A DNA stretch of 64,000 bases. Source: Verrucomicrobiales bacterium. GTDB lineage: Bacteria > Verrucomicrobiota > Verrucomicrobiia > Limisphaerales > J093. This document shows positions 17,979-56,063 of this stretch, in pieces. Position numbers and translations under genes: made by a program. The DNA lies in NCBI GenBank assembly GCA_037445715.1, contig JBBIJZ010000002.1:30269-94268 (forward strand). Reading direction: 5' to 3'. Position 1 is the first letter of the stretch, and every line of letters begins with the position of its first letter. The notes beneath the pieces were generated by a model that did not search any database, was not told the origin of the DNA, and saw only the letters and a list, made by a program, of their open reading frames with translations.

Positions 17979-20216
17979 GTGTTACCACCGGGCGACATGT
18001 GGGCCGCCCAACATCGGGGGCTGTTATCGGACTTCGCCCGGGCCTTTGGCAAGCCTGCACGCCACCCGGCGGCCGCGCCTTCGCAGGGGGCGGAGCAGCC
18101 CGGGAAAGGTGCGTGGCGGGCCGGTCTCTTTTGGGGTCTGTTCTTGTTCGTGGCGGGCTGCGGCGTCCAAGGGCGCGACCACCTGCTGCTGGGCCAGCGG
18201 TTGCTCCGGGAAGGCCGTCCGGCCGAGGCCATCGAGCCGCTCCAGGCCGCGATTCAAGCCCTCCAAACCAACGCCCCTGCCGCGGCCCAGGCCTGGAACT
18301 ACCTCGGCCTGGCCTACCATCGGGCGGGACAACCCGCCGAGGCCGCCCGGGCTTACAAGGTGGCGCTGGACCGCGACTTCAACCTCTTCACCGCCCGCTA
18401 CAACCTGGGCGCGCTGCTCTTCGAGCAGGGCAACTACGCCGCCGCCATCAACGAACTGACCACCTACACCGCCCACCAGCCCAAAGACCCGGCCGGCTGG
18501 CTCCTGCTCGGCCGGGCGCAACTGCGCGCCGGCCTGCTCGACGCCGCCGACCGCAACCTGCTCCAGGCCCTGCGCCTGAACCCCGATCCTCTCCCGCAGG
18601 CCGAAGCCCTCAACGCCCTCGGCCTGGGCCAGGCCCAACGCCGCCGACCCCGCGAGGCCTTCCAGTACTTCGAGGCCGCCCTCAATCGCGTCACCAACTA
18701 CCCGCCCGCCCTGCTCAACCAGGCCATCCTTTCCCAGCAGGTGCACGACCACCGCTTCGCCCTCCAGAAATACGCCGCCTACCTCGCCGCGGCCGGCCAG
18801 GCCGCTGAGGCCGAGACCATCCGCCGCCTGACCAACCGCCTGGGCGAGCAAATCGCCCAGACGCTCAAGCCCACACCGGCACCGGTTGCCCCGCCACCCG
18901 CGACCAACCTGCTGGCCAATCTCCGCACCGCAACTCCGCCTGCAGTGAGCGCTCCAACCCCGAGCCCGCTCCGCACCACGGTGCCTCCGGCCAAGCCGTC
19001 CGTCACCGCGCCGCCGGGGATCGCGCAAACCTCACCCCCCCCGGCCCCGGTCGCCACCACCGCACCCCCACCCGTCGTAGCCGCCGCCCCACCGCCGGTC
19101 CGGACGCCGCCGGACACCACACCTGCGCCGCCCCAGGTCGCCGCGGTCACACCGCGCGCCGCCCCCCCCGGCCCCCGCGGAGCCGAAAAACCACCACCAA
19201 GCACGCCCGGCCCCGCACCGGCGCCCGTTGCCGCCGCGCCCAAGCCAGAGCCGCCCCCGGCGCCGACCGTGGAAACGGTGGAGCTCGAGACCGAACCGGA
19301 CGTCAAACCCGCCGTGGACGTGGCGCTCGCCCCGGCCGCGACGCCGCTCCCGCCTTCCGTCGCCACGTCCCCTCCACCCGCCGCGCCCGCTCGCGAACCA
19401 GCGGCGGGTCCCACCCCGGCCCGACCCGCCGCCACGCCGGCATTGTCCTCCGCGGCCCCGGGCAGCGAAGCCAAGGAACCCGAACCGCCCCGCAAACGCT
19501 CCTTCCTCGCCCGACTCAACCCGCTCAACCTCATCCGCGGCGAGGAGGACCCGGAAAAAATCCGCGAGCGCGAGGCGAAAAAAGCCGCCGAGCAGGCCCG
19601 CAAGGCGGCAAAAGAGGCCGCCAAAAAACGGCCCACACCCGTCGAACGCAAGACGGCCGCCGCCCCGGCCCCGCCTCCCGAGCCGCCCCGCCCCGTTTTT
19701 CCCCGGTACCGCTACGCGGCACCGGCCCCGCCCGCGCCCGGAAATCGCGCGGAGGCCGAGCGCCTGGTGGCCGAAGGCCTGGCCGCGCACCGCGCCGGGC
19801 GGTTGGGCGAGGCGTTGACGGCGTACCAGCGGGCCACGCGCGCCGACCCGGCGCACTTCCCGGCCCAGTTCAACCTGGCCGTGGCCGCCTACGAGCAACG
19901 CGACTGGCCGCGTGCCCTGGCCGCTTACGAGACCGCGCTGGCCCTGGACCCCGCCCATGCCGACGCCCGCTACGGCCTGGCCCTCACCCTGGAACGCGCC
20001 GGTTACCCGCTCGACGCGGCGGCGGAACTGGAAAAATTGCTCGCCCGCGACCCGCGCCACGTCGAAGCGCACCTGGCCCTGGCCAATCTTTGCGCCACGA
20101 CGCTGGCCGAGCGCGACCGCGCGCGGGAGCATTACCTCAAGGTGCTCGAGCTCCAGCCCCACCACCCCCAGGCCGGGCTGATCAAGCGCTGGCTGGGGCC
20201 GGCCCGGCGGCCCTGA
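17979..20216 (+). CDS. TPR-repeat protein with a roughly 300-aa Pro/Ala-rich linker
   Basis: GTG 17979, with an alternative ATG at 17997. Membrane or lipobox-like segment LFLFVAGCG. TPR blocks lie on both sides of a low-complexity Pro/Ala/Thr region (about 18861-19745), e.g. AWNYLGLAYHRAGQPAEAARAYKVAL and ARYGLALTLERAGYPLDAAAELEKLL. Confidence 0.75.
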   Translation: MLPPGDMWAAQHRGLLSDFARAFGKPARHPAAAPSQGAEQPGKGAWRAGLFWGLFLFVAGCGVQGRDHLLLGQRLLREGRPAEAIEPLQAAIQALQTNAPAAAQAWNYLGLAYHRAGQPAEAARAYKVALDRDFNLFTARYNLGALLFEQGNYAAAINELTTYTAHQPKDPAGWLLLGRAQLRAGLLDAADRNLLQALRLNPDPLPQAEALNALGLGQAQRRRPREAFQYFEAALNRVTNYPPALLNQAILSQQVHDHRFALQKYAAYLAAAGQAAEAETIRRLTNRLGEQIAQTLKPTPAPVAPPPATNLLANLRTATPPAVSAPTPSPLRTTVPPAKPSVTAPPGIAQTSPPPAPVATTAPPPVVAAAPPPVRTPPDTTPAPPQVAAVTPRAAPPGPRGAEKPPPSTPGPAPAPVAAAPKPEPPPAPTVETVELETEPDVKPAVDVALAPAATPLPPSVATSPPPAAPAREPAAGPTPARPAATPALSSAAPGSEAKEPEPPRKRSFLARLNPLNLIRGEEDPEKIREREAKKAAEQARKAAKEAAKKRPTPVERKTAAAPAPPPEPPRPVFPRYRYAAPAPPAPGNRAEAERLVAEGLAAHRAGRLGEALTAYQRATRADPAHFPAQFNLAVAAYEQRDWPRALAAYETALALDPAHADARYGLALTLERAGYPLDAAAELEKLLARDPRHVEAHLALANLCATTLAERDRAREHYLKVLELQPHHPQAGLIKRWLGPARRP

Positions 20217-20246: not shown

Positions 20247-23200
20247 TCACCCGACGCGGCCCGGCTTGGCGGGTGACCGCGCAAGGCGCAGGACCATCCA
20301 ACCGGCCAGGAACAGGCCTGCCAGCAGGGCCAGTCGGCCCACGCCCGAAACCTCCGCCCGCACGGCCGCGACGCGGAGGGCGATTTTCAACTCGGCCCAC
20401 GGCTCCACCGCCAGCGGGCGGGTGAAGGTCAACACCCGGCCCTGCTCGGGCAGCGCCACCCGCAACGCCGTGGGGCTGGCCGCCGCCGCTTCCTGCTGTT
20501 GAATGAGGCGCTGGGCCAGTTTCAACGGCACCGCCTCGTCCTCGGGGGCGCCGCGCTCAAGCTGTTGCCCTGCCCGGGGAGGCGTCGCCGGCGCCGCGGC
20601 CGGGGAGGGGACCTGGCCGGCCACGCGGCTCTGACTGAGGCTCAACCCCCGGAGGGCCTGCTGCATCTTGAGGTTTTGGAGCTGGACGCGCGCGTCCTCG
20701 TTGAACGCCGCGTCGCGGCTTGAAAGTTGAAAGGCGTTCTTGAAGGCCAGCCGGGCGCGCTCGGCGTCGCCGGCCTCGAGCAGGCGGTTGCCCAGGGAGA
20801 GAAATTGTTCGGCCTGCTGATTCTGCTCGCGTTGCCGGGTCCGTTCCGCGGTCAGGTAGGCCTCCAGGTCCGGCGGGGCCACGGCGCGGGTGGCCGCCTC
20901 CTGCAATTGCAGGGTGCCGGACCAGTCCTTCAGGCGCCAGCGCTCGTGCAGGAAGACCTGCCAGGAGACGTTTTCCAGGGGCAGGTCCAGGCGCGGCCCG
21001 ACCAGCGTCAGGTCGAGCGTCTCCGGTCGCGCGCGGCCCGCCGGGCTGGTGTGGTAGAACTCGATGGTGACCGGTTCGCTGCCGCCGGCGTGTTGCTCGA
21101 GCGGGATGAGCACCTGGTCGCCGTCGTTCCAGGGCCAGACGCTGTTCTGGTTGACGAAGGCGAACCAGAAACGCGCCCCGGCCGGCAGCCGCAGGTGCAA
21201 CAGGCGCTTGTCGCCCGGAACCAGTTCGACCCGCGTGCGGGTGAGCATCCCGCCGTCGTCGGCCACGACGGATTGGAGTTCGACGCGGTTGACGCGCGCG
21301 GGCAGGAGGCTGGCGGCCTGGTGACGCTCCAGACGCACGGTCAGGCGCGCGTCCGGCTCGATGAGGCGGAAGGTGTAGTTGGCCGCCGCCGCCGGGATGT
21401 CCCGCAGCAACGCGCGCGGGATGACCTGCCATTCGGTGGGTTGCAGGCTCGGCGGCACCTCCGCCACCCGCGCCTGGAGCCGGCCGGCGGCCTGCACGGT
21501 GAGGAAGCCGCGTTGCAGATTCACCTCGAGCGCCTGCACGCCGAGGATTTCGGCCGCGGTCGCCTCCCCGGCCACGGGCAGGGTGTAGCTGACCTGAAGC
21601 AGATGCCGGCCGAGCACGCGCCGGTGCAGCTTCACTTCCCAGACGCGCGCGACGGCGTTGGTGGCGTCCTCGCGCGGGGCGAAATCGGCCACCGATTCGC
21701 CGCGGAAGCGGACGTTCTCCGCCGCGGCGGGCAGGCGCACCCGGAGGGTTTTGACGCCGGTGTTTTCGATCTCGTACTGGAGGTTGGCCTGCACCTGGAG
21801 GCGGGCGTCGCCCACGGTCACGTGCTGGAGGCTGGTGACCTGCAACCAGGCGTCCACCGATTCGAGGTCCAGCGTCAGCCGCCAGGGACTTTGCAGGAGC
21901 CGGAAGGCCAGCACGCCCCGGGGCCGCGCCCCGGCCTCGGCCGGGTCAAACGGCACCACGCCCTCGCGCGCGGCCACGCGCACCCGCAGGCCCTGCTCGG
22001 GCGCCACGAACAACTGCCCCCGCTCCCGGGCCGCCTCTCGCACCCGCAGCACGGGCACCGTCCAGCCCTGCGCCGCGCGCACGCCCGGCCCGGCCAGCGT
22101 CAGCGCAAAGGTCTGTGGTCCCAGCGTGCGGCCCTTGAGATGGAGCGTGATCACGCGGTGGGTGGCGTCGGTCCGCAGTTCCGTCCAGTGGCTCAACGCC
22201 GCGCCGCTGAGCGTCTCCACCTCCAGACCCGGTGGCAGCGAAAAGCTCAGCCGGAAAATGCCCGCCCGCGTGATGTCCACCGTCCACGTCGCCGCCAGCA
22301 GGACGCGGTCCTCGCCCAGCGAGAGGGTTTGCTGCGACTCGACCCGCACCTCGGGTTCGACCGGCGCGGCCCGCAGGCGCAACGCGGCCTCCGTGTTCGC
22401 GTACCGGAAGGCCCGGCGCACGGCCAGGCCCGGCACCGCCCCGACCAGCGGTTCGAGCACCGCGACCGGGAAATCCTCCAGGTTGATCGGCGCCAGCGGT
22501 CCGGCGTCCACCGCCTCCAACTGCACCTCGCCCCCCGTGGCCACGCCCACCACGCCCACCTCGCTGGCGGCGCCGCGCAGCCGCACCAGGCCCACGCGGG
22601 TCTCCGCGGGCAAGGTGCCGGCGGGCGATTGCGAGCGGATTTGCACCGCAAACGGCCGGGCCTGCGCGGGGCTGAGCCGGGCGCGCAACTGCCGCGTGTC
22701 CGGGTCAAACCGCCAACCCGCCAACCCCGGCGCGGTCACGTCGGTGACCGCCGCCCCCGGCGGCACGTCGAACACCAGTTCGGCCAGCTCGCCCCGGGCC
22801 GGGCGCACCTGCGCCGCGTGCAACCCTTCCACCGCCCCACTGGCCGGGACGTACACCTGCGTCCATTCCGCGTAAAAGACCGCCGCTTCGCGCCGCGGGT
22901 CGCGTTGCCGCGGCCGCCAGCCCAGCCACGTCTCGCCCACGGGCCGCAACACCAGCTCAATTACCGTGTTGGTCGCGTCCGCCGCCGAGCGCCGCTGCGC
23001 GGACACGGCCTGTTCGGCGACCACGTCCACGTCCTGGCCCGCGACGGTCAACGTGAGGCGGTTGACCAGCCCCGGCGGCACCGGCACCCGGAAGCCGCGG
23101 ACTTCGCCCTGCGGCTCGACCCGGGTTTGGTAACGGATCACGGCCTCGATCCAGCCGTTGGTCTCGGCCAGGAGCCCGCGTTGCGGCCGCTCCGGCGGGC

Positions 23201-26200
23201 CGCCCTGGACGAGGCGGGCGGCACCGGTGACCAGCTCGAACCCGGTGAGCACGCCGGGCGCTTCGAGCACGGGCAGCGTCTGGCCCGGGGCGGCCTGCCA
23301 GCGCAGCCGCACCTCACCCAGCACGTGGTCGTCCTCTGCCCGCACTTCCTGGACGATCTGCGCGGCCACGGGAGCCGCGGGGCCGGCCGCCCGGGCCGGC
23401 AGCCCCCACGCGCCGACACCCAACCCCAGACCGAGCCACCCCACCACCGCGGCCGTGACCGGGCCGGTCGCGGCACCGGGCGCCACCGGCGCGCGCCACC
23501 ACCGCCGCCACAGCGGCACCAGCACCTGGACCACCAGGAACAAGCCCACCACGCCGGCAAAGGACGCGCCACCGTCCGGTTGTCGCAAGGCCGCCCAGGC
23601 CAGTGCCGTCCAGCCCAGCGCGCCCCACACGACGACGCGCCGCGGTTGGGTGGAACCGCGGCCCACGGCCCAGGCCACCAGCGCCAGGGCGGCCGGCCAA
23701 AAACTCCACACCCGTCCCCACACCGGCACCGTCAGCGGCACGTGCAGCACTTCGGCCCGGAGCACGCCGCCGGGTGGGAGCACCGGCGCCACAAAGCGCA
23801 GCCCGGCATCTTCCGCGCCGGGCGGTGGCGTGGCGACCCACTCCCGGAGCATCTGCGCGGCCAGGAACAGGGCCAGCAAGCCCGCCGCCAGCGCGGCGAG
23901 GCGCCGGGGCGCGAACCGGCCACCGGGCGTGTCCGCCAGCCAGCGCAGCGCCAGTGCGGCCAGCAGCACCATTCCCAACAGCACCAGCCACCGGCCGGCG
24001 GTTTTCGCGCGGTCCGGTCCGGTGAAGATGCGGGCCAGCGCGGTCCAGCCGGTATGGGCGGCGACGGCCGGGGCGGGGGGCAACGTGGCGGAGCGCAGCA
24101 CCAGGCGACGGTCCCGCTCGGTCTCCAGGCGCCAATCGGCCAGCAGCACCGGGGCGGTCACCGCCGGGGTGGCCACGGTGAGTCGGCGCGGCCCGACGTT
24201 GGTGGCCGCCAGTTTGACCACCACCTCGTTGAGCGTGTTCGGGTCGCTGTGCTGCGGCAAGCGGATGAGATTGGTTGGGCCGTCGCGGACGGGCACAACC
24301 GCGTTGCTGTTGACCAGCACCGACCAGAGGGTGGTGTTGGGCGGCAGGACCAGTTGCAGATGCGGCGTGCCCTTGTTCTTCACGAAATAGCGCGCCTCGG
24401 TCACCACCTGGCCCTCGCGGGCAATCCGGGTGGTGAGCGCCGCCCGGTCCACCACCTGGCTGAGCATCTCGCCCTGGGCCAGCGGCTGAAGGGCCAGTTC
24501 GAGGTTGAAGGGCCGGGCGGTGTACCGGAAGGCGGCCAGCACCGGCGCGTCGAACAGCAGCCGGTACTCCGGCGGCAACTCGCCCGGCTCGAGCGCGACC
24601 AGGGCGGGCGAGACCTGCACCGGCCGGACCTGGAACTGGTAGGTGCTGACCACCACGGTGTAGCCCTGTTCGCTCTGCACCTCGAGCGGGCGCGCACCGG
24701 TGAAGGCCAGTTGGTCGCCCGGCGCCTTGAACGGCCGGTCATAGGTGACCAGCAACGTGTACGGACCGCTCACCGGCTGGCCGAGCTCGACCCGGTAGCC
24801 GTTGGGGGTCTGATGCGCCCCCCGGACGTGCCGGCCGGTGAACTCGACATTGGCCACCTCCGCCGGCAACTCGACCGTCCAGGCCGAGACCGGCGCGCCG
24901 CTGACCAGGTAGTTCAACACCGAACTGCCGTAGGCCACGCCCTCGCCCACCGAGAAGAGGTGGAAGGCGTCCACCTGCACCGTCTGCGGCAGCCGCTCCA
25001 CCGCCAGCGTGGCCGACCACCCGGCCTCCGTGATCCGGAACGCCGCCTGCAAGCCCGCGCGCGGTTTGGGGAAAAACGCCGTGGCCAGCTCCGTCAGGCC
25101 CGCGGTCGCCGCCGGCGTGAGCCGGAAACCCGCGTCGGCGGAGACGCCCACGTGGCCGCGGGTGGACCGGGCGCGCAACACCTCCAGGCGCGGCAGGGTC
25201 CAGCGCGGCTCGCGGAAAGCCTCGTTGCGCTCCAGTCGCAGGGTGATCAGTTGCCGGCCCAGCACCGGCGCCCCGTAAAGCACCCGCACCACCGGCTCGG
25301 CTTCGCCGGCGGGCGGCACCGTGTACTCGCTCATCCCCGCCGCCTGCACCGCGACCACGGTGAACCCGGTCGGCACCCGCACCTGGACTTCGCGCAGCGC
25401 CGCCTCGCGCACGTCCACCTCGAACTCCGCTTCGATCCCCAGCTCGGACTCGCCCAGGTAATAGGCCAGGACGGCCGACACGGCCAGCTCCGGCAGGACG
25501 TCGTCCGCCTGCAGGCGCAACCGCTGTTCGGGGCCGGCATACCGGTAGGCAAACACCGGGCGGGCCGCCGGCGGCGCCAGCGCGCGCGCGGTGTCGCTCC
25601 CCGGAAACTGTTCCGGCGAAATCTGCGCCAGGCCCGCGGCCTCGAGCACATCCAGCCGCACCGCGCCCTGCGTGGCCACGCGCAGGTGCCCGGCGAAGCG
25701 CGTGGCGCCCGCGGGCGCCAGCCGCGTCACCTCCACGGTTTGCGGGAAGGCGTCCAGCGCCTGCTCGAGGTGCACGCTCAGCGCGAAGGTGTCCTTTTGC
25801 GGGGCGTTCAACTGCACCTGCAACCGCCGGCGGCCCTCGCGGTCGGCGGGCAACACCTCCCACGACAACACCGCCCCGCCCTGCACGCGTGTGACCGCCG
25901 CCCCGCCGGCCAGCGCCAGCTCCACGCGCTGCATCTCCCCCTGCATCACGCGAAACTCCAGCGCCGCCGCCTGCCGCATCAGGCCGGGGCTGAGCGTCAC
26001 CTGCTCGAGCGCCTCGGCCGCGAAGAACAGGCGCCCCTCGGCTTCCGGCCGGCCTTCCTGCCAGGCCAGGCGCACCCGGCCATCCGGCGGCAAGTGGCTC
26101 ACAAACCCCTCGCCCCGCCGTTCGGGGCGGGCCGCGCCTGCGAAGCGAAACTGCGTGTCCGCGGGCAGGCCGGCGAGCGTGATCGGGGCCACGACCGCCG

Positions 26201-27275
26201 GCGCCACGGTGAAGTTCACCTCGCGCCAGCCGTTGGTGTGGCGCACCGCGGCGTCGAACTCGAACGCCAGCGGGAACTCACCCGCACGGTCAAATTCCGC
26301 CACGTAGGTCTCGCGCTCGAACCGCAGCCGCACGCCTTCCGGCGCCGTGAACCCGGCCAGCGCCGCTTCGCCGCCGAGCACCTCGAGCCGGCCGCCGCGG
26401 GGCAGCGGCACGCGCGCCCGCGCGGTGAGCCGGAAACGCGCCCGGTCCTCGCTCAGTTCGCCGCGCAGTTGGAAATCGCGCCAAGTAACCAGGCGCGCCT
26501 CCGGGTCGGCCGGGGCGATTTTCAACGGGAGCACGCCCGGGGCGCCCTGAAACCGGAAGGCCAGCGGCGCGGGCGCGCTCGCCGGCGCGTCCGGGCGCAG
26601 ACCCGGGGGCAGAAACCGCGGTTCGATGGGCACCAGCCCGGCCAGCCCCTCGCCCGGTTCGACCGCCAGTTCGCCCGGCGCGTCCACGCGCAGATAACCG
26701 GCCGCGAGCAGGGCCGGCTCGGTGGCGAAGGTCAGCGGCTGCACCGTGCGGGGCAGCTCCGGCACCGAGGTGACGGCCTGGATCGTGGTGGTGAATCGTT
26801 TCCGCGGCGGGTCCGCGCGGTTCAAGCGCAACACCAGTTGCCGGCCCGACGCGGTCTGGCGCACTGCCCAGTCCTCGAGGCCCTCGCCGTGGACCTCGCG
26901 CACCTCGCCCTCGCCGGCGAGCGCCAAGACCAGCTCGCGCAATTCGCCCTGCAACGCCTCGGCCTGCACCTGGACGCGCTGGCGGATTTCTTCGCGGCCG
27001 ACCTCGAGGTGTTGCTCGAAGTGGGCGCCGTACAGGGCGGGCCGTGCCGCCGCGCCCAGACCGCTCAGGTCCGCCTCGATGACCAGTCGCGCCTTCTCGC
27101 CATCAAGCTGGCCGTTGACCGTGGCTCGCCGGACCTCGACCGCGGTCGGTTCGGCGCCCCGGCCCAGCAGCGCAACGGCCAGGCCGAGCGCGCCGAGCAC
27201 GCAGCGCGGTCCGCCGGGCCGCGGGTGCGGCCGGGGGCGGGAAAGGAGCAAGGGAGTCGGCGGCAGTGTGTTCAT
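20247..27275 (-). CDS. giant polytopic envelope protein (2,342 aa), internally duplicated, no recognisable domain
   Basis: ORF 20247..27818 trimmed to ATG 27275 (MNTLPPTPLLL..., signal-like GALGLAVALLG). The upstream part of the ORF is an out-of-frame overlap with the vWA gene. A central block of about six hydrophobic helices lies at about 23385-24000. There is a C-terminal TM segment (LALLAGLFLAGWMVL). The beta-rich composition contrasts with the Arg/Gly/His-rich antisense ORF. Confidence 0.8.
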   Translation of the reverse strand: MNTLPPTPLLLSRPRPHPRPGGPRCVLGALGLAVALLGRGAEPTAVEVRRATVNGQLDGEKARLVIEADLSGLGAAARPALYGAHFEQHLEVGREEIRQRVQVQAEALQGELRELVLALAGEGEVREVHGEGLEDWAVRQTASGRQLVLRLNRADPPRKRFTTTIQAVTSVPELPRTVQPLTFATEPALLAAGYLRVDAPGELAVEPGEGLAGLVPIEPRFLPPGLRPDAPASAPAPLAFRFQGAPGVLPLKIAPADPEARLVTWRDFQLRGELSEDRARFRLTARARVPLPRGGRLEVLGGEAALAGFTAPEGVRLRFERETYVAEFDRAGEFPLAFEFDAAVRHTNGWREVNFTVAPAVVAPITLAGLPADTQFRFAGAARPERRGEGFVSHLPPDGRVRLAWQEGRPEAEGRLFFAAEALEQVTLSPGLMRQAAALEFRVMQGEMQRVELALAGGAAVTRVQGGAVLSWEVLPADREGRRRLQVQLNAPQKDTFALSVHLEQALDAFPQTVEVTRLAPAGATRFAGHLRVATQGAVRLDVLEAAGLAQISPEQFPGSDTARALAPPAARPVFAYRYAGPEQRLRLQADDVLPELAVSAVLAYYLGESELGIEAEFEVDVREAALREVQVRVPTGFTVVAVQAAGMSEYTVPPAGEAEPVVRVLYGAPVLGRQLITLRLERNEAFREPRWTLPRLEVLRARSTRGHVGVSADAGFRLTPAATAGLTELATAFFPKPRAGLQAAFRITEAGWSATLAVERLPQTVQVDAFHLFSVGEGVAYGSSVLNYLVSGAPVSAWTVELPAEVANVEFTGRHVRGAHQTPNGYRVELGQPVSGPYTLLVTYDRPFKAPGDQLAFTGARPLEVQSEQGYTVVVSTYQFQVRPVQVSPALVALEPGELPPEYRLLFDAPVLAAFRYTARPFNLELALQPLAQGEMLSQVVDRAALTTRIAREGQVVTEARYFVKNKGTPHLQLVLPPNTTLWSVLVNSNAVVPVRDGPTNLIRLPQHSDPNTLNEVVVKLAATNVGPRRLTVATPAVTAPVLLADWRLETERDRRLVLRSATLPPAPAVAAHTGWTALARIFTGPDRAKTAGRWLVLLGMVLLAALALRWLADTPGGRFAPRRLAALAAGLLALFLAAQMLREWVATPPPGAEDAGLRFVAPVLPPGGVLRAEVLHVPLTVPVWGRVWSFWPAALALVAWAVGRGSTQPRRVVVWGALGWTALAWAALRQPDGGASFAGVVGLFLVVQVLVPLWRRWWRAPVAPGAATGPVTAAVVGWLGLGLGVGAWGLPARAAGPAAPVAAQIVQEVRAEDDHVLGEVRLRWQAAPGQTLPVLEAPGVLTGFELVTGAARLVQGGPPERPQRGLLAETNGWIEAVIRYQTRVEPQGEVRGFRVPVPPGLVNRLTLTVAGQDVDVVAEQAVSAQRRSAADATNTVIELVLRPVGETWLGWRPRQRDPRREAAVFYAEWTQVYVPASGAVEGLHAAQVRPARGELAELVFDVPPGAAVTDVTAPGLAGWRFDPDTRQLRARLSPAQARPFAVQIRSQSPAGTLPAETRVGLVRLRGAASEVGVVGVATGGEVQLEAVDAGPLAPINLEDFPVAVLEPLVGAVPGLAVRRAFRYANTEAALRLRAAPVEPEVRVESQQTLSLGEDRVLLAATWTVDITRAGIFRLSFSLPPGLEVETLSGAALSHWTELRTDATHRVITLHLKGRTLGPQTFALTLAGPGVRAAQGWTVPVLRVREAARERGQLFVAPEQGLRVRVAAREGVVPFDPAEAGARPRGVLAFRLLQSPWRLTLDLESVDAWLQVTSLQHVTVGDARLQVQANLQYEIENTGVKTLRVRLPAAAENVRFRGESVADFAPREDATNAVARVWEVKLHRRVLGRHLLQVSYTLPVAGEATAAEILGVQALEVNLQRGFLTVQAAGRLQARVAEVPPSLQPTEWQVIPRALLRDIPAAAANYTFRLIEPDARLTVRLERHQAASLLPARVNRVELQSVVADDGGMLTRTRVELVPGDKRLLHLRLPAGARFWFAFVNQNSVWPWNDGDQVLIPLEQHAGGSEPVTIEFYHTSPAGRARPETLDLTLVGPRLDLPLENVSWQVFLHERWRLKDWSGTLQLQEAATRAVAPPDLEAYLTAERTRQREQNQQAEQFLSLGNRLLEAGDAERARLAFKNAFQLSSRDAAFNEDARVQLQNLKMQQALRGLSLSQSRVAGQVPSPAAAPATPPRAGQQLERGAPEDEAVPLKLAQRLIQQQEAAAASPTALRVALPEQGRVLTFTRPLAVEPWAELKIALRVAAVRAEVSGVGRLALLAGLFLAGWMVLRLARSPAKPGRVG
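23385..24000 (-). other. central six-helix membrane block of the giant protein
   Basis: Hydrophobic segments: WLVLLGMVLLAALALRWLA, LAALAAGLLALFLAAQML, VWSFWPAALALVAWAVG, VVVWGALGWTALAWAAL, FAGVVGLFLVVQVLVPLW, VTAAVVGWLGLGLGVGAWGL. Confidence 0.6.
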
Positions 27276-27291
27276 GGTCAAAAGGCCGGAT

Positions 27292-29709
27292 TCAACGCCC
27301 GGCCAGGCGGTGGGCTTGTTCGAGCATTTGGGCCAGCCGGGCCGGCCGGGGATCGGGCGCGAAGGCCTCGGGCACGCCGGCCAACAACGGTTGCAGGCGT
27401 TCGGGGGAGACGTCGCCGGCAAAGGGGCTTTGCGCCAGCCATTCGGCGAACAACGCCGCGGTCGCGGCCAGCCGCAGGGCGGGGCCGGCATCCGCAAGCT
27501 CCGGAGCCGGGCCGCGATAGTCCAGCGTCCAGGCCAGCTCGCGGTACCGGCCGGAGGCGGGCTCGCGATAGCGCACGCGGAAGGTGCCCAGGGGCCCCTG
27601 CCCGTCGGGGTGGACCTCCAGCGCGTACAGCGCGGTGCCGGTCTCGGCCGCGCCGAGCTCGGCAGCGTCCACGGTGTCGTCCCGGAACTGCTCGGCGGTG
27701 AGTTGGTGGCGCGCATAGCCGAGCTGCCGCCAGCGGAGAACGCGGGCCGGGTTGAACTCGACCTGCACCTTGACGTCGGCCGCGGCGACCTGGAGCGCGC
27801 CGGCCAGTTGCGCGGCAAAGCCGGCCGCGGCTTCGTCCGGAGTGTTGAGGAAGCCGTAGCGGCCGTCGCCGTGGCGGGTGAGCACTTCGAGCAGTTCGTC
27901 GTTGAAGTCCTCCCAGCCCACGCCGAAGGCGTCCAACGCCACGCCGCGGCGGCGGTGGTCTTCGACCAGGTGTTGCAACGAGTCCGGCATGACCTCTCCC
28001 AGGTTGGCGGCGCCGTCCGTGATCAGGATCACGCGGTTAACCCCGCCGGGCAGGAAATGTCGCAGGGCGACCTCGTAGCCCAGGCGCAGGGCGTCTTCGA
28101 GATGGGTGCCGCCCTCCGGAGTGAGGGCGGCGGCCGCTTCGAGCACCGGGCCGGCCTGCTCGCCCGACACGCCCTCGGCAAACAGCCGCGCGGTGCGGGC
28201 GAAGGTGACCACGCTGAGGCGGTCGGCGGGTTGGAGTTGTTCGGCAAGCAACCGCAACATCTCGCGGCACGTGGCCACGCGGTCGGCGCGCTCCATCGAA
28301 CCGGAGCGGTCCAGCACCAGCACGAGGTTCAAGGCGCGGCCCGGCTCGCGGCCCCGCGCGGCGGTCTGGACCCGGAAACGGACCAGCTCGCGGTGGTGAG
28401 CGAAGGGATGGCGCGCGCGGTCCCAGTGAAAGGCCAGGGGCGCACCCTGGGCCGGAGCGGGGTCGCGGTAATCGAAGGCGTTGACGAACTCCTCGACCCG
28501 CACGCCACTCGGCGGGGGCAACTGCCCGGCGTCGAGGCTGGCAGCCGCCAGGCGGAACGACACATCGGCGACGTTCAGCGAGAAGGTCGAAAACGGATTC
28601 TCGGCGGTGGCGACCTCGGGTGGGTGAACCGGCAGGGCCGGCGCAGGCGCGGCGGTGAGCGCGACCTCCCGGGCCTCCTTGCTTTCCAGCCGGAGCGCGT
28701 CCGTGGCCGGGCTTTCGGCGAGTCTTTCTTCGAACGCATCGCGTGCCAGGGTCTCCTGGGCGCGGCGGGTTTCTCCTCCTGCCCGGCCGGCGGCGGCCAC
28801 GGCGCCACCGCCCTGCACGCCCAGGTCCAGCGCAAACACATCGCCGGCCGCCGGGAGGGCGGCTTCCGGGGGCACGGGCGTGACCGACGCGGGAACTTTG
28901 GCCGGCTCTGCTTGAGCCACTTCCGGGGTGCCCGCGGCCGACCGGCCCTCCGAGCGAGCCAGGCCGTAACGCAGCATCCTGCGGAGGTCCTCGGTTCGGG
29001 GGGGTGCCGCGGCAGAAGGGGCGGCGAGATCGCGCGGCCGACCCGGAGCCGGAACCGCGGGCATCGGCGCTACGGTGGGCGCGGCGGTGGGCGCGGGTGG
29101 CGGGGCCTGGACCAACTTGCGACCGAGCGTGGGCACGCGCCGGTCGCCGGCTTCCGCTACCGTCCCGGCCGCTGCGGCGGGCGGCGGGGGCGGGGCGGCG
29201 GTTTCGGCTGCGGCCAGTTGCCGCTCCAGTTCGGCCTGCTTTTCCCGGGCACGTTGGCTGACCAGTTGGGCCTTGGCCTTGGCCCGGGAAAGGGCCGGCA
29301 ACATCAGGCCCGCCCCCAGCGCCAGGAGCAGGGTCACAACCGCCGCCAGGGCGAGCCAGTGGGTGCGCCGGGAGCCAGCCGCCGCGCGAGCGGGGGCAAA
29401 GGCGGGCGGCGAGGCGGTGTTGAACGCGGCCACCAATGCCCGGCGTCGCTCGGGGGAAAGCCGGAGCGGAGCCGGGGCGGGCGTGGCAGGGGAGTTATCC
29501 GCGCCGCTCTTGGCGTCGGCCCCGCGCAACGCCTCGCGCACCAGGGGCAGGGTGCGGGCCAGGCGGGCCAGCAGTTGGACCTGGTCCGGCCGGGCGGCCA
29601 GCTCGGCGTACACGGCGGTGGTTTCCTCGGGCGAAAGTTCGCCCAGCAACAGCGCCGTGAGCCGGGCTTCCGGGTCGGGAGCGGGAGGCGGAGGCGGAAC
29701 AGGGTTCAT
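27292..29709 (-). CDS. anti-sigma factor fused to a YfbK-like von Willebrand factor A ectodomain
   Basis: N-terminal helical anti-sigma-like segment LTALLLGELSPEETTAVYAELA. One TM (HWLALAAVVTLLLALGAGLML). Pro/Ala linker. NPFSTFSLNVADVSF...EEFVNAFDY segment. vWA domain with MIDAS DRSGS (28297-28311) and ILITDGAANLG. The start codon overlaps the sigma stop (ATGA at 29706-29709). Confidence 0.8.
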   Translation of the reverse strand: MNPVPPPPPAPDPEARLTALLLGELSPEETTAVYAELAARPDQVQLLARLARTLPLVREALRGADAKSGADNSPATPAPAPLRLSPERRRALVAAFNTASPPAFAPARAAAGSRRTHWLALAAVVTLLLALGAGLMLPALSRAKAKAQLVSQRAREKQAELERQLAAAETAAPPPPPAAAAGTVAEAGDRRVPTLGRKLVQAPPPAPTAAPTVAPMPAVPAPGRPRDLAAPSAAAPPRTEDLRRMLRYGLARSEGRSAAGTPEVAQAEPAKVPASVTPVPPEAALPAAGDVFALDLGVQGGGAVAAAGRAGGETRRAQETLARDAFEERLAESPATDALRLESKEAREVALTAAPAPALPVHPPEVATAENPFSTFSLNVADVSFRLAAASLDAGQLPPPSGVRVEEFVNAFDYRDPAPAQGAPLAFHWDRARHPFAHHRELVRFRVQTAARGREPGRALNLVLVLDRSGSMERADRVATCREMLRLLAEQLQPADRLSVVTFARTARLFAEGVSGEQAGPVLEAAAALTPEGGTHLEDALRLGYEVALRHFLPGGVNRVILITDGAANLGEVMPDSLQHLVEDHRRRGVALDAFGVGWEDFNDELLEVLTRHGDGRYGFLNTPDEAAAGFAAQLAGALQVAAADVKVQVEFNPARVLRWRQLGYARHQLTAEQFRDDTVDAAELGAAETGTALYALEVHPDGQGPLGTFRVRYREPASGRYRELAWTLDYRGPAPELADAGPALRLAATAALFAEWLAQSPFAGDVSPERLQPLLAGVPEAFAPDPRPARLAQMLEQAHRLAGR

Positions 29710-30254
29710 GACACGAGGCCGGCTTTGGCCAGTTCGGCCGCCAGGGCTTTGAGGGCATGGTGCAGGAGGTAACCCACGTGGCCCACGCTCAGGCCGGTGC
29801 GAGCGCTGATCTCCCGGTAGGAAAGGTCGTGGGCGAATTTGAGTTCGAGCAGCTCGCGGCTGCGGGGATCGAGCTTTTGCAGGCCGAGCCGAACCAGACC
29901 CACCGCCTCCCAGCGGGCGAGCAATTCATCCGGCGGCGGCCGGGGGTCCGGCGCTTCTTCCGGGGGCTGCGGGCGGCCGGCCGCGTCGGCCAGGGACACG
30001 ACCGGCCCGGCGTCCCGCCGGTGATTGAGGGCGAGGTTGTGCACGGTGCGGAAGAGCCAACGGCGGGGGTCGCGCACCTCGGCGAAGTGCGCGTGCAACC
30101 GAAGGAACGCTTCCTGGACAATCTCCTGGGCCATGTCGGGGTCGGCCAGCAGGCGCAGGGCATAGGCCAGCAACGGTGCCTCCAGCACCTCGAACCACCC
30201 CAGCAGGGCGGCGGGCGGCGGACCGGCGGAAGGAGCGGAGTCGGCCGTGGCCAT
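29706..30254 (-). CDS. ECF-type RNA polymerase sigma factor
   Basis: Region 2 (EIVQEAFLRLH, WLFRTVHNLALNHRR) and region 4 HTH (LSYREISARTGLSVGHVGYLLHHALKAL). 182 aa. Confidence 0.85.
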   Translation of the reverse strand: MATADSAPSAGPPPAALLGWFEVLEAPLLAYALRLLADPDMAQEIVQEAFLRLHAHFAEVRDPRRWLFRTVHNLALNHRRDAGPVVSLADAAGRPQPPEEAPDPRPPPDELLARWEAVGLVRLGLQKLDPRSRELLELKFAHDLSYREISARTGLSVGHVGYLLHHALKALAAELAKAGLVS

Positions 30255-30397
30255 GCCGGATCAGGTTGGCCGGGCGGACCGGGTGTCGCGCGCGGCGGTC
30301 TTGGGCTGCGCTTGCATGAGCTTCCCCCAGTATGACACGCGGCCCGGGGTTTTCTTAGGGAAAAATCGCGAGGGGAAAGCGGCACCGCTTGGGCACT

Positions 30398-30433
30398 GCG
30401 GCAAGGTAGGGTGCCGCGGCAAGGTAGGGTGCC
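30398..30433. repeat. perfect 2 x 18-bp tandem repeat gcggcaaggtagggtgcc in the sigma/korA divergent region
   Basis: Copy 1 is 30398-30415 and copy 2 is 30416-30433, with identical bases. The second copy runs into gctgcgccggcgcc, the same core as the GGTAGGGC palindromic module at 35.6 and 41.2 kb. Confidence 0.9.
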
Positions 30434-41244: not shown

Positions 41245-41409
41245 GAAGTCCGCGAAGCGCCTGGAGTCGCCAGCTTGCTGGCGCTGTCAGAGCGACGCCA
41301 AGAGGCTCCGGCGGCCGGCAGAGCGCATCTCCATTTCCTGCCGTGACCGGTTTGGGTCGGAGCGGCAGACTTCCTCGTCTGCCGTAGCGCGGGTTTCCCA
41401 ACCCGCCGG
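41245..41409. repeat. interspersed module Q (165 bp)
   Basis: Aligns end to end with 46304-46469, roughly four-fifths identical by eye. Contains hairpins cgccagc-ttg-ctggcg and gcgggtt-tccc-aacccgc. Confidence 0.85.
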
Positions 41410-41450
41410 TCCCTGGCTTCCCCCGCGCCGCTAGTGGGGAAACCGGCGCG

Positions 41451-42422
41451 ATGACCGTGGCAACCAAAGGGAACGCGCCGGGCATCGGCGCGCGTGAAAT
41501 CGCCTTGGAAACTCCCGGCGACCGGGCTACCTTCCGCGCCATGCTCGGCCGAAGTCCTGGCCAACCTGTCCTTGCCCGCCCCACTCCGGAGCGTGGCCGG
41601 CGGCGGGGTCCGTGTCGGGCCGGGGGGTTCACGCTCATCGAGTTGTTGGTGGTGCTGGCCGTGATTGCGGTGCTGGTCGGGCTGTTGCTGCCGGTGCTGA
41701 GCCGGTCGAAGGAGGAAGCCCGTAGCATCGCCTGCCGCAACCACCTCAAGCAGCTTCAGATTTGCGTCCACCTCTATGCCGTGGACCACGCGGACACCCT
41801 TCCCCCCAACAATTACGTGTACAACCTCGAGACCGAGGCGCCCGACCCGGTGGCCTTCAGTACCAACATGACCTGGTGCCCCGGCAACACCCGCCTGGAC
41901 CTGACCCCGGCCAACATCGAGCGCGGCCTGCTCTTCCCCTACAACCGCTCGACCGCCATTTACCACTGCCCCTCGGACCGCTCCTACGTCGAGACCGAGG
42001 AGGGCCGCCGCCTGCGCCGGTTGCGCACCCGCAGCTACAACATGAGCCAGGCCATCAACGGCGCCCCGGTCGAGGAGGACTATTACGGCCCGCCCGGCTT
42101 CGCCAAGGAATCCCAGATTGACCGCCCCGCCCCCACCGAGCTGTTCGTGTTTCTGGACGTGCACGAAGACGGCATCCTCGACTCCCTCTTCGGCATCCCC
42201 CCGCCGGGCTGGGAACGCTTCATGGACCTGACCTGGTGGGACCTGCCGGCGGACCGCCACAACCGCGGCTGCAATCTGTCCTTCGCCGACGGCCACGTCG
42301 AGCGCTGGCGCTGGCTGGCGCCAAAGATTTTCGTGACGCTCGGGCAGGCGCCCGCCAGCCCGGAGGAGTGGCGGGACTTCGAGCGCCTCCGCGCCCGGGT
42401 CAAACCCGAGACGCGCTTTTGA
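41451..42422 (+). CDS. prepilin-leader / H-X9-DG (DUF1559-like) protein
   Basis: Type IV pilin-like N-terminus GFTLIELLVVLAVIAVLVGLLLP. H-X9-DG motif HNRGCNLSFADGH near the C-terminus. An alternative start at ATG 41541 is possible. Confidence 0.8.
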   Translation: MTVATKGNAPGIGAREIALETPGDRATFRAMLGRSPGQPVLARPTPERGRRRGPCRAGGFTLIELLVVLAVIAVLVGLLLPVLSRSKEEARSIACRNHLKQLQICVHLYAVDHADTLPPNNYVYNLETEAPDPVAFSTNMTWCPGNTRLDLTPANIERGLLFPYNRSTAIYHCPSDRSYVETEEGRRLRRLRTRSYNMSQAINGAPVEEDYYGPPGFAKESQIDRPAPTELFVFLDVHEDGILDSLFGIPPPGWERFMDLTWWDLPADRHNRGCNLSFADGHVERWRWLAPKIFVTLGQAPASPEEWRDFERLRARVKPETRF

Positions 42423-55265: not shown

Positions 55266-55353
55266 GACGAATTCAGTTGCAGCGACTGTAGGTAACGCAA
55301 AAGGGCGTCGCAAGGGCATTCGCCCCCGGGACCGGCGAACCCGAAAAAGCAGG

Positions 55354-55995: not shown

Positions 55996-56018
55996 GAGCC
56001 ACCGCCTGGCTAGTCAGT

Positions 56019-56063
56019 GGATCAGACGGATCGGTCGGATCAGTCGGATCGGCCGGATCATCA
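56019..56063. repeat. 5 x 9-bp tandem repeat GGATCNNNC (five GATC sites at 9-bp spacing)
   Basis: ggatcagac (56019-56027), ggatcggtc, ggatcagtc, ggatcggcc, ggatcatca (56055-56063). The last unit contains the subtilase stop codon. The array ends 23 nt upstream of the coaE ATG. Confidence 0.9.

What the first reader, a model, noticed from the sequence alone, without database searches (positions are those of the whole stretch)
20247..27275. The giant protein is an ancient internal tandem duplication: two roughly 1,000-aa ectodomains flanking a six-helix membrane core
The regions before and after the hydrophobic block (about 23385-24000) align with each other at an offset of roughly 3.1-3.2 kb.

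Aligned segments:
- FRITEAGWSATLAVERLPQTVQVDAF...LNYLVSGAPVSAWTVELPAEVANVEFTGRHV (about 24965-25040 and downstream) matches FRLLQSPWRLTLDLESVDAWLQVTSL...LQYEIENTGVKTLRVRLPAAAENVRFRGESV (about 21835-21910 and downstream).
- TEARYFVKNKGTPHLQLVLPPNTTLWSVLVNSNAVVPVRDGPTNLIRLPQ (about 24301-24360) matches TRTRVELVPGDKRLLHLRLPAGARFWFAFVNQNSVWPWNDGDQVLIPLEQ (about 21121-21200).
- FAYRYAGPEQRLRLQADDVLPEL... matches RAFRYANTEAALRLRAAPVEPEV...

Within each half the same roughly 200-aa beta-rich unit appears to recur.

Inference on topology: a signal-like N-terminus, an even number of central helices and one C-terminal TM helix would place both large halves outside the cytoplasmic membrane. The C-terminal region also has a helical, TPR-like stretch (FLSLGNRLLEAGDAERARLAFKNAFQL) before the final TM helix.
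Basis: seen in the sequence. Interest (0 to 1): 0.7.

Follow-up and report, generated by a model that had tools for sequence, protein, structure and literature searches.

The report
Duplicated giant membrane protein, sigma-factor linked
The 2,342-residue protein really is two diverged copies of one ~800-residue beta-sandwich module on either side of a six-helix membrane block, and it belongs to an unannotated Verrucomicrobiota family that always sits behind an ECF sigma factor and a vWA-type anti-sigma factor; its function is unknown.

Summary
Observation confirmed. The gene is on the minus strand (27275..20247, 2,342 aa). Residues ~264-1066 align colinearly with ~1307-2123: BLASTP E 5e-45, profile-profile probability 99.9 %, Smith-Waterman z = 65 against shuffles.

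AlphaFold2 gives all-beta ectodomains and six helices at aa 1089-1290. Loop charges across 121 homologues follow the positive-inside rule, which places both halves outside the cytoplasmic membrane.

- The recurring unit is ~170 aa, not ~200 aa.
- The N half carries one extra unit.
- The "TPR-like" stretch is not a significant TPR.

New findings:
- The family is very large (7,206 clusters at 50 % identity) and has no Pfam or NCBIfam model.
- In every related locus with enough upstream DNA, the gene is third in a cassette of ECF sigma, vWA/YfbK anti-sigma and giant protein. A conserved ECF-type promoter motif lies upstream.
- Half-length single-module homologues (1,100-1,340 aa) exist in Planctomycetota.

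Function is inferred only: a periplasmic scaffold or sensor partner of the vWA anti-sigma factor. The architecture is solid and the mechanism is speculative. Moderately interesting.

The parts
30334..30359 (-). ECF-type promoter-like motif CCTAAGAAA-N12-CGTGTC, about 80-105 nt upstream of the sigma gene's ATG
   Evidence: A motif of the form TCTAAGAAA-N12-13-CGTGTCAT lies upstream of the sigma gene in 35 of 50 loci. It occurs once in the 64-kb window and 38 times in 1.39 Mb of related loci. L030 and L071 have a second copy 127-173 nt upstream of the giant gene.
29706..30254 (-). ECF sigma factor, 182 aa
   Evidence: Pfam Sigma70_r2, Sigma70_r4_2 and Sigma70_r4. TIGR02937 sigma70-ECF scores 65.8 bits against a cut-off of 42.9. 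Its stop overlaps the next gene's start (ATGA).
27292..29709 (-). Putative anti-sigma factor, 805 aa. Order of parts: N-terminal anti-sigma-like helix, one TM segment, Pro/Ala-rich linker, then vWF_A, VWA and YfbK_C (DUF3520). The MIDAS motif DRSGS is present.
   Evidence: Pfam YfbK_C 4.7e-28, vWF_A 6.7e-16, VWA_2 2.4e-13, VWA 9.1e-13. A weak zf-HC2 match covers aa 15-33, E 0.089. The gene ends 16 nt before the giant gene's ATG.
20247..27275 (-). The giant protein, 2,342 aa: signal/TM0, N ectodomain, 6 TM helices, C ectodomain, helical region, TM7
27162..27212 (-). N-terminal hydrophobic helix (aa 22-38), either a signal peptide or a membrane anchor, preceded by an Arg-rich n-region
   Evidence: AF2 helix 22-37. 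Mean net charge of the N-terminus across the family is +2.0.
26496..27044 (-). N1 (aa 78-260): an extra copy of the ~170-aa unit, absent from the 2,100-2,200-aa homologues
   Evidence: hhalign N1~N3 E 7.8e-24. In the shorter homologues the C module starts about 200 aa earlier. L030 and L071 proteins begin at the N2 domain.
24108..26495 (-). N module (aa 261-1056), domains N2, N3, N4, N5, N6
   Evidence: Aligns colinearly with the C module. All-beta, pLDDT 75-93 in blocks.
23406..24011 (-). Six-helix membrane core. Helices at aa 1089-1115, 1123-1148, 1185-1207, 1211-1231, 1235-1261 and 1274-1290, with a ~45-aa acidic loop after helix 2
   Evidence: AF2; Kyte-Doolittle peaks; loop charges. This is the least conserved part of the protein, with column conservation 0.42-0.54 against 0.7-0.86 in the ectodomains.
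20910..23369 (-). C module (aa 1303-2122), domains C2, C3, C4, C5, C6
   Evidence: Cognate pairs from hhalign: N3~C3 1.6e-14, N4~C4 4.9e-11, N5~C5 1.3e-9, N6~C6 1.5e-13, N2~C2 2.4e-4. All-beta, pLDDT mostly 85-93.
20463..20867 (-). Extracytoplasmic helical region (aa 2137-2271).
   Evidence: AF2 helices at aa 2137-2167, 2171-2184, 2189-2218 and 2244-2271. Pfam TPR_CcmH_CycH E 0.51, not significant.
20679..20708 (-). AFNEDARVQL (aa 2190-2199), the longest run of invariant residues in the protein
   Evidence: Invariant in 81- and 33-sequence alignments. The tool chose it as the search pattern that recovered relatives in genome contigs.
20289..20345 (-). C-terminal TM helix (aa 2311-2329), followed by a basic tail
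   Evidence: Kyte-Doolittle peak 1.81. Mean net charge of the tail is +2.3. In 83 of 102 representatives exactly one hydrophobic peak follows C6.

Best explanation
SHOWN:
- The gene encodes a polytopic cytoplasmic-membrane protein. A five-domain beta-sandwich module of ~800 aa was duplicated en bloc, and the two diverged copies (27 % identity) flank a six-helix membrane block. Both copies face the periplasm.
- An extra N-terminal unit, an extracytoplasmic helical region carrying the invariant AFNEDARVQL motif, and a final TM helix complete the protein.
- The family is large, unannotated, and seen here in Verrucomicrobiota.
- The gene is always third in a cassette of ECF sigma factor, membrane-anchored anti-sigma-like protein with periplasmic vWA/YfbK_C domains, and giant protein. 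A conserved ECF-type promoter-like motif lies upstream of the cassette.
- Free-standing single-module relatives (signal, one module, 2-3 hydrophobic peaks consistent with TM helices) exist in Planctomycetota, sometimes as several adjacent paralogues.

INFERRED:
- The giant arose by duplication of a single-module gene followed by fusion. It therefore behaves as a covalent pseudo-heterodimer of two modules that elsewhere would be separate subunits.
- It does not look like a transporter. It looks like a periplasmic scaffold whose strongly conserved ectodomain surfaces make specific protein contacts.
- The most likely contact is the MIDAS-bearing vWA domain of the co-encoded anti-sigma factor. A change at that contact would control release of the sigma factor, which would then drive its own three-gene operon.
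For: Duplication.

Fold and six helices.

Topology.

Family size and lack of annotation:
- All 120 listed homologues are about 1,900-2,650 aa (most 2,310-2,500), have no Pfam domain, and are named only 'hypothetical'.
- 7,206 clusters at E<=1e-3 and 2,300 at E<=1e-30.
- No Pfam or NCBIfam hit for the whole protein or for 22 separate modules.
- No PDB sequence hit.
- 376 stretches in the species-representative genome collection encode a relative. The 80 kept are labelled Verrucomicrobiota, apart from about a dozen under other taxon names that I take to be mislabelled MAGs.

Cassette:
- The sigma and vWA genes lie directly upstream in essentially every locus with enough upstream DNA, about 50 loci. 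L022 showed the vWA gene only.
- No other neighbour is conserved; the most widely shared flanking ORF is seen in 7 of 57 loci.
- Promoter motif. Two genomes carry a second copy in front of the giant gene.
- An anti-sigma factor with DUF3520 fused to a vWF domain is described for group ECF289 (PMC7826278).

Single-module relatives.

Against a transporter: the TM core is the least conserved part.

Residues invariant in both modules are mostly G, P, W, L, V and F, i.e. fold determinants. Each module separately has many invariant charged residues.
Against: - There is no experimental or co-evolutionary evidence for a contact between the giant protein and the vWA domain. Operon linkage is equally compatible with the giant being only the output of the sigma factor.
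- The inter-domain arrangement is not known: pTM is 0.36-0.37 and the halves were modelled separately.
- Topology rests on the positive-inside rule, not on a dedicated predictor or on experiment.
- The anti-sigma assignment of the vWA protein rests on gene position, a sub-threshold zf-HC2 match (E 0.089), and a published group description that I could not test with that group's model.
- Distant two-module relatives in a Planctomycetota-like locus have no sigma or vWA neighbours. The sigma link is therefore lineage-specific and not intrinsic to the fold.
- The phylogeny is a neighbour-joining tree with modest support (62 % for Verrucomicrobial N and C modules being sisters).
Confidence: 0.6

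Rival explanations
1. The giant protein is only the regulated product (effector) of the ECF sigma factor. It would be an envelope scaffold or protective structure induced under some envelope stress, with no part in sensing.
For: It is co-transcribed from the sigma-type promoter: the gap to the upstream gene is 16 nt and the motif lies upstream of the cassette. Two genomes place an extra copy of the motif directly in front of the giant gene. Many ECF operons carry their main target downstream. Related two-module proteins exist without any sigma or vWA partner.
Against: The sigma and vWA genes accompany the giant gene in essentially every informative locus across the whole family. This strict, long-lived linkage resembles that of a signalling partner. 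An anti-sigma factor with a protein-binding vWA/MIDAS domain needs a ligand, and the giant is the only other conserved gene.
Confidence: 0.3
2. The six-helix core is a channel or transporter, and the two ectodomains are its periplasmic domains. This would parallel the internally duplicated RND/MmpL transporters with two large periplasmic loops.
For: The layout is pseudo-symmetric, with two large extracytoplasmic domains and a polytopic core.
Against: - The TM core is the least conserved region, at 0.42-0.54.
- Only W1222 and L1230 are invariant there, with no conserved charged or polar intramembrane residues.
- The duplication does not include the TM helices.
- The core has six helices in a single set, not two repeated bundles.
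- No transporter family matched in Pfam or NCBIfam.
Confidence: 0.05
3. The N/C similarity is not an en-bloc duplication. It would result from independent amplification of the same ~170-aa unit in each half.
For: The unit does recur, and shifted alignments exist, for example N1~C5 E 5e-9 and N1~C4 E 2e-7.
Against: - One colinear alignment spans five domains, with 756-783 columns.
- The cognate pairs N3-C3, N4-C4, N5-C5 and N6-C6 are the best cross-half matches.
- The two non-unit domain types (N2/C2 and N6/C6) occupy the same positions in both halves.
- Free-standing proteins carry exactly one such module.
Confidence: 0.04

Closest known systems
Ribophorin I / Ost1 subunit of eukaryotic oligosaccharyltransferase (e.g. 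PDB 6s7t_E, 8b6l_O, 6ezn_A)
   Same: These are the best Foldseek matches for both halves (E 2e-9 to 2e-10, about 430 aligned columns). They share tandem beta-sandwich domains on the non-cytoplasmic side followed by a membrane anchor, and a non-catalytic scaffold role.
   Different: Identity is 9-12 %, TM-scores are low (0.23-0.31 on the target), and there is no Pfam Ribophorin_I match. Ribophorin I has two domains and one TM helix, against eleven domains and eight helices here. It is eukaryotic ER machinery. The resemblance is at fold level only.
Integrin alpha-subunit legs (thigh, calf-1, calf-2) working with the vWA-like beta-I domain of the beta subunit
   Same: A membrane-anchored array of beta-sandwich domains appears among the top Foldseek hits (E 1e-8 to 1e-9). 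It is encoded next to a membrane-anchored MIDAS-bearing vWA protein whose cytoplasmic end would transmit a signal.
   Different: There is no beta-propeller head and no demonstrated homology or contact. The partner here is an anti-sigma-like protein. This is an analogy to be tested, not a family assignment.
ECF sigma / anti-sigma systems of group ECF289, whose anti-sigma factor carries DUF3520 fused to a vWF domain (Casas-Pastor et al. 2021, PMC7826278)
   Same: The upstream genes are an ECF sigma factor and, at position +1, a protein with VWA and YfbK_C (DUF3520) domains.
   Different: The passages of that paper I could retrieve (keyword look-ups; no supplement held) do not mention a conserved giant membrane protein at +2. 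Assignment of this sigma factor to ECF289 could not be tested because no group model was available.
Bacterial alpha-2-macroglobulins (inner-membrane-anchored periplasmic MG-domain arrays)
   Same: A long periplasmic array of beta-sandwich domains tethered to the cytoplasmic membrane. A2M and C5 entries appear among weaker Foldseek hits.
   Different: There is no thioester motif; the protein has a single Cys, at residue 25. There is no A2M or MG Pfam match. The anchoring also differs: 8 TM helices and two modules.
Single-module relatives in Planctomycetota (e.g. L085 4516-8004 and 16346-20317; P0307-P0336, 1,095-1,340 aa)
   Same: True homologues. They have one X-U-U-U-T type module (A5 profile iE 3e-26 to 7.5e-47), an N-terminal signal, and a C-terminal TM cluster.
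   Different: They have one module instead of two, 2-3 C-terminal hydrophobic peaks plus an acidic tail, and occur as several adjacent paralogues without sigma or vWA genes. They too are annotated only as hypothetical proteins.

Membership tests
Internally duplicated protein (the claim itself) | A significant, colinear off-diagonal self-alignment | tested here: met
   BLASTP E 5e-45. Smith-Waterman z = 65 against shuffles. hhalign probability 99.9 %, 783 columns.
Internally duplicated protein (the claim itself) | Existence of single-copy (half-length) homologues | tested here: met
   Proteins of 1,095-1,340 aa with one module in Planctomycetota. None appeared among the 150 best representatives of the Verrucomicrobial family, where every short entry was a fragment.
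Polytopic membrane protein with both halves extracytoplasmic | An even number of central TM helices, and positive-inside charge alternation | tested here: met
   Six AF2 helices. Family-wide net loop charges +2.0 / -1.7 / +1.4 / +0.8 / +2.8, N-terminus +2.0, C-tail +2.3.
Polytopic membrane protein with both halves extracytoplasmic | Experimental or dedicated-predictor topology (PhoA/GFP fusions, DeepTMHMM) | not testable with these tools
TPR repeat proteins | A match to a TPR profile above its gathering score | tested here: not met
   Best hit is PF23914 TPR_CcmH_CycH, E 0.51, 10.6 bits against a cut-off of 42. AF2 shows one short hairpin plus helices of about 30 residues.
Ribophorin I / Ost1 (PF04597) | A sequence-profile match | tested here: not met
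   No Pfam hit at E<=1 for the protein, nor at E<=0.1 for 22 modules.
Ribophorin I / Ost1 (PF04597) | Fold similarity of the lumenal beta-sandwich pair | tested here: inconclusive
   These are the top Foldseek hits (E ~1e-9 to 1e-10), but the TM-score is 0.23-0.31 on the target and identity is 9-12 %. Generic beta-sandwich arrays such as integrin legs and A2M score similarly.
Alpha-2-macroglobulin / thioester proteins | A CxEQ thioester motif and A2M/MG domain profiles | tested here: not met
   The only Cys is residue 25, in the signal region. There are no A2M or MG Pfam matches.
ECF sigma factor (upstream gene 29706-30254) | Sigma70 regions 2 and 4 only, passing the ECF superfamily model | tested here: met
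   Pfam r2 and r4. TIGR02937 scores 65.8 bits, above the cut-off of 42.9.
ECF289-type sigma / anti-sigma pair | An anti-sigma factor at +1 carrying DUF3520 (YfbK_C) fused to a vWF/VWA domain | tested here: met
   YfbK_C 4.7e-28 and VWA 9e-13 in the +1 gene. The feature is as described in PMC7826278.
ECF289-type sigma / anti-sigma pair | The sigma factor scoring with the ECF289 group model, and a recognisable anti-sigma domain | tested here: inconclusive
   The group HMM is not available. The N-terminus of the +1 protein gives only zf-HC2 E 0.089.
Known anti-phage defence systems (PADLOC) | A match of any of the three cassette proteins | tested here: not met
   No hits.

The most novel reading that the evidence does not exclude
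Verrucomicrobiota carry a phylum-wide, undescribed three-part envelope signalling device. A 2,300-residue pseudo-heterodimeric beta-sandwich membrane protein (built like integrin-alpha legs or ribophorin) pairs in the periplasm with the MIDAS/vWA domain of an anti-sigma factor. This would give integrin-like outside-in signalling that releases an ECF sigma factor. The wider superfamily (single-module paralogue arrays, pilin-like and secretin-N fusions in Planctomycetota) would be a new class of PVC envelope scaffold.
Probability: 0.15. Interest if true: 0.8.

Novelty: new variant of a known kind. Interest (0 to 1): 0.5.

Why it matters
This is among the largest conserved genes in these genomes. 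It is found in several hundred species-representative genomes labelled Verrucomicrobiota, yet it has no domain model, no name and, as far as I could find, no literature.

Three results turn a "hypothetical protein" into a defined object that can be tested:
- It is a fused pair of modules.
- It is locked to an ECF sigma / vWA anti-sigma pair and a recognisable promoter motif.
- Single-module ancestors survive in Planctomycetota.

If the vWA-giant contact is real, it would identify the missing ligand or co-sensor for vWA-type anti-sigma factors. It would also give a handle on envelope organisation in the PVC superphylum. If not, the finding remains a clean example of gene duplication and fusion producing a pseudo-symmetric membrane protein.

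Tried and rejected
1. Plus-strand ORF 20727..27701 (2,324 aa). Rejected as an antisense high-GC artefact on codon-position GC and absence of homologues.
2. Upstream TTG start at 27818. Rejected because that region lies inside the vWA gene's frame signal and homologues of 2,340-2,350 aa align from the ATG at 27275.
3. Pfam, NCBIfam and PADLOC scans of the whole protein, and a Pfam scan of 22 isolated modules. Nothing found.
4. Profile search of PDB sequences. No hits at E<=10.
It was repeated with 32, so the alignment depth is shallow.
6. The search for related loci with the mixed N+C alignment failed for lack of a conserved stretch. It was repeated with the C-part alignment.
7. A crude hydrophobicity-based count of TM helices in 102 representatives over-counted and was discarded. 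Only the core-length distribution (median 257 aa) was kept.
8. Search for other conserved neighbours around the cassette. None found. The convergent TPR gene 17979-20216 is not conserved.
9. Literature searches gave no description of this protein. Terms used: ECF, Verrucomicrobia, von Willebrand, DUF3520, YfbK, giant protein, Akkermansia.
10. A first bootstrap run timed out and was redone with a faster distance calculation.
11. Transporter, thioester-protein and independent-unit-amplification readings were considered and rejected. See the rival explanations and membership tests.
Full report
**Gene model**

The window is ~70 % G+C, so long spurious ORFs occur on both strands. Codon-position GC picks the minus-strand frame, with GC1/2/3 of 0.76/0.55/0.90. 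The upstream region 27300-29700 belongs to a different minus-strand gene. The giant gene therefore runs from the ATG at 27275 to the stop at 20247, which is 2,342 aa. This matches homologues of 2,340-2,350 aa at up to 90 % identity.

**The observation**

The duplication is real and far beyond chance.
- BLASTP of the part before the hydrophobic block against the part after it aligns aa 346-1051 with aa 1371-2116. Identity is 27.5 % over 756 columns, E 5e-45.
- The Smith-Waterman score is 559, against 56 +/- 8 for residue shuffles and 61 +/- 8 for block shuffles (z about 60-65). The offset is 1,023-1,057 aa, or 3.07-3.17 kb.
- With family profiles, hhalign aligns N 264-1066 with aa 1307-2123 at probability 99.9 %, E 8e-36, 783 columns.

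**Anatomy**

AlphaFold2 was run on aa 1-1100 and on aa 1085-2284, each with 32 diverse homologues. Mean pLDDT was 78 for both. pTM was only 0.36-0.37, so the domains are reliable but their mutual arrangement is not.
- Both ectodomains are entirely beta.
- The central block forms six helices, at aa 1089-1115, 1123-1148, 1185-1207, 1211-1231, 1235-1261 and 1274-1290.
- After the second beta region come long helices (aa 2137-2271).
- The C-terminal hydrophobic segment at aa 2311-2329 was outside the modelled range and is identified from the Kyte-Doolittle peak.

I cut the protein at the secondary-structure breaks and compared family profiles of the pieces.
- A ~170-aa unit recurs seven times: N1, N3, N4, N5, C3, C4 and C5.
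- There are two other domain types. One is N2/C2. The other is a ~120-aa terminal domain, N6/C6.
- The cognate pairs N3-C3, N4-C4, N5-C5 and N6-C6 are the best cross-half matches.
- What was duplicated is therefore a five-domain module, X-U-U-U-T.
- N1 is an extra unit, closest to N3 (E 8e-24). It is missing from the 2,100-2,200-aa members of the family.

**Topology**

Mean net loop charges over 121 aligned homologues are as follows.

| Segment | Mean net charge |
|---|---|
| N-terminus | +2.0 |
| Loop 1 | +2.0 |
| Loop 2 (46 aa) | -1.7 |
| Loop 3 | +1.4 |
| Loop 4 | +0.8 |
| Loop 5 | +2.8 |
| After helix 6 | -0.3 |
| C-terminal tail | +2.3 |

This is the alternation the positive-inside rule predicts if both large halves lie outside the cytoplasmic membrane. 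No dedicated predictor was available. I treat the topology as well supported but not proven.

**The "TPR-like" stretch**

It is not a significant TPR (Pfam E 0.51). The model shows one short helix-turn-helix followed by helices of about 30 residues. This region does hold AFNEDARVQL (aa 2190-2199), the longest invariant run in the whole protein.

**Fold comparison**

For both halves the best PDB matches are ribophorin I/Ost1 of oligosaccharyltransferase (E about 1e-9 to 1e-10, ~430 columns). Next come integrin alpha legs, then alpha-2-macroglobulin/C5 arrays and PIG-T. Identities are 8-13 % and TM-scores are low. This shows membrane-anchored beta-sandwich arrays, not family membership.

No Pfam, NCBIfam, PADLOC or PDB sequence match exists. 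The single Cys rules out a thioester protein.

**Family**

All 120 listed homologues from the word-index search are about 1,900-2,650 aa long (most 2,310-2,500), carry no Pfam domain, and are named only "hypothetical protein". Source labels include Pedosphaera and Chthoniobacter.

A profile of mixed N and C modules found 7,206 clusters (50 % identity) at E<=1e-3 and 2,300 at E<=1e-30. Among the best 150, every complete protein has two modules, and every short entry is a contig-edge fragment. Two-module members reach down to 25-30 % identity with the window protein.

Exact-motif scanning of species-representative genomes found 376 stretches that encode a relative. The 80 loci kept are labelled Verrucomicrobiota, apart from about a dozen under other taxon names that I take to be mislabelled MAGs.

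Within the family, the ectodomains are more conserved (0.7-0.86) than the membrane core (0.42-0.54).

**Genomic context**

Immediately upstream on the same strand are two genes.
- An ECF sigma factor (29706-30254).
- An 805-aa protein (27292-29709) that overlaps the sigma gene's stop codon. It has an anti-sigma-like N-terminus (zf-HC2 E 0.089, sub-threshold), one TM segment, and periplasmic vWF_A, VWA (MIDAS DRSGS) and YfbK_C domains.

The giant's ATG follows 16 nt after this gene's stop.

The same sigma-vWA-giant order is found in essentially every related locus with enough upstream sequence, about 50 loci; L022 showed the vWA gene only. No other flanking gene is conserved.

A motif, TCTAAGAAA-N12-13-CGTGTCAT, lies upstream of the sigma gene in 35 of 50 loci (the scan hit starts 89-178 nt upstream of the ATG, mostly 100-129). 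The window copy at 30359..30334 is unique in the 64 kb. Two genomes have a second copy 127-173 nt upstream of the giant gene.

I read this as an autoregulated ECF promoter that drives all three genes. That reading is inferred from the pattern, not shown.

An anti-sigma factor with DUF3520 fused to a vWF domain is the published hallmark of group ECF289 (PMC7826278). I could not test the sigma factor against that group's model.

**Half-length homologues and origin**

I walked outward from a distant representative, P0268. This found three things.
- A 2,575-2,811-aa subfamily that still has two modules, a central TM block and C-terminal TM helices.
- A Phycisphaerae protein with only the last unit and terminal domain of a module, followed by TPR and secretin-N domains. 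A 677-aa secreted protein with a shortened module sits next to it.
- A Planctomycetota-like operon, L085. There a two-module protein is flanked by three single-module paralogues of 1,162, 1,323 and 1,478 aa. Each has its own signal sequence and one module; the 1,162- and 1,323-aa proteins show a C-terminal cluster of 2-3 hydrophobic peaks, the 1,478-aa one a single peak. Two of the three junctions overlap by 4 nt and the third abuts directly.

The 1,323-aa protein defines a family of 30 proteins of 1,095-1,340 aa. The only names they carry are "hypothetical protein [Planctomycetota bacterium]".

A neighbour-joining tree of modules gave these bootstrap values over 200 replicates.

| Grouping | Support |
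|---|---|
| Verrucomicrobial N modules | 70 % |
| Verrucomicrobial C modules | 38 % |
| Verrucomicrobial N + C modules as sister groups | 62 % |
| Verrucomicrobial N modules with Planctomycete-type N modules | 0 % |

This modestly favours a duplication, followed by fusion, within the verrucomicrobial lineage and before its radiation. It argues against fusion of much older paralogues. A proper likelihood analysis is still needed.

**How it most likely works**

The following are shown:
- the architecture;
- the topology, by rule;
- the conservation pattern;
- the operon and the promoter motif;
- the existence of single-module relatives.

The rest is inferred. The protein is a covalent pseudo-heterodimer of two modules that in relatives are separate, adjacent gene products. 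It forms a periplasmic scaffold anchored by poorly conserved helices. Its many invariant charged ectodomain residues point to specific protein contacts.

The only other conserved genes encode a sigma factor and an anti-sigma-like protein whose periplasmic part is a protein-binding vWA/MIDAS domain. My best guess is therefore that the giant is the ligand or co-sensor of that domain and gates sigma release. Its being simply the sigma factor's main output is nearly as likely. A transporter role is unlikely.

**Verdict**

The family appears undescribed. The mechanism remains open.

Noticed in passing
window 30398-30433 (minus strand), between the sigma gene and the divergent pyruvate:ferredoxin oxidoreductase gene: A perfect tandem direct repeat of 18 bp, GGCACCCTACCTTGCCGC x2, lies about 40 nt upstream of the ECF-type promoter motif. 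It could be a regulator binding site.
   Followed up: no
window 46671-55565 (minus strand): A second giant ORF of ~2,960 aa, unrelated to the finding. It has six Calx-beta domains, DUF5122 beta-propeller repeats, PKD and CarboxypepD_reg domains, and looks like a secreted or surface protein. Upstream of it on the minus strand lie a dephospho-CoA kinase gene (55354-56013), then a 1,249-aa S8 subtilase (56061-59810) and a 1,106-aa protein with no Pfam match (59740-63060).
   Followed up: partly
window 17979-20216 (plus strand): A 745-aa TPR-rich protein convergent with the giant gene (TPR_2 1e-28; weak resemblance to MamA, PilW and BatC). It is not conserved next to the cassette in related loci.
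   Followed up: partly
window 20727-27701 (plus strand): A 2,324-aa open reading frame antisense to the giant gene. It is an artefact of 72 % G+C and of codon bias on the coding strand, not a gene.
   Followed up: yes
L085 2612-24349 (Planctomycetota-like metagenome contig): An operon of at least four adjacent paralogues of the module (1,162 aa, 2,782 aa with two modules, 1,323 aa, 1,478 aa). Two junctions overlap by 4 nt and the third abuts. There are no sigma or vWA genes. A PilZ-domain gene lies nearby. This looks like a multi-subunit version of the same scaffold.
   Followed up: partly
L083 8737-16463 (Phycisphaerae MAG); P0287, P0288, P0302: The last unit and terminal domain of the module occur in a 1,898-aa protein (P0305) together with TPR and secretin-N domains. 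Some distant two-module proteins carry DUF1559 (pilin-like) or PATR domains according to precomputed Pfam. This hints at a link with envelope or secretion machinery.
   Followed up: partly
L001 4376-7771 and L002 4016-7495: The vWA anti-sigma-like protein is 1,131-1,159 aa in other members and carries PATR repeats between the TM segment and the vWA domain. The window's version is 805 aa with a Pro/Ala-rich linker instead. L002 also has an extra 162-aa ORF between the vWA and giant genes.
   Followed up: no
window 41388-42422 (plus strand): A protein with a prepilin-type N-terminal methylation motif and a DUF1559 domain. I recall this type as typical of Planctomycetota and Verrucomicrobiota, which fits the taxonomic placement of the window.
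   Followed up: no
L017, L028, L033, L062, L068, L070 and others: Several MAG records carrying close homologues are titled Akkermansia muciniphila, Bifidobacteriaceae, Chitinophaga pinensis or Candidatus Acidoferrum. Given 46-53 % identity to a verrucomicrobial protein together with the full sigma-vWA cassette, these titles look like mislabelled bins.
   Followed up: no
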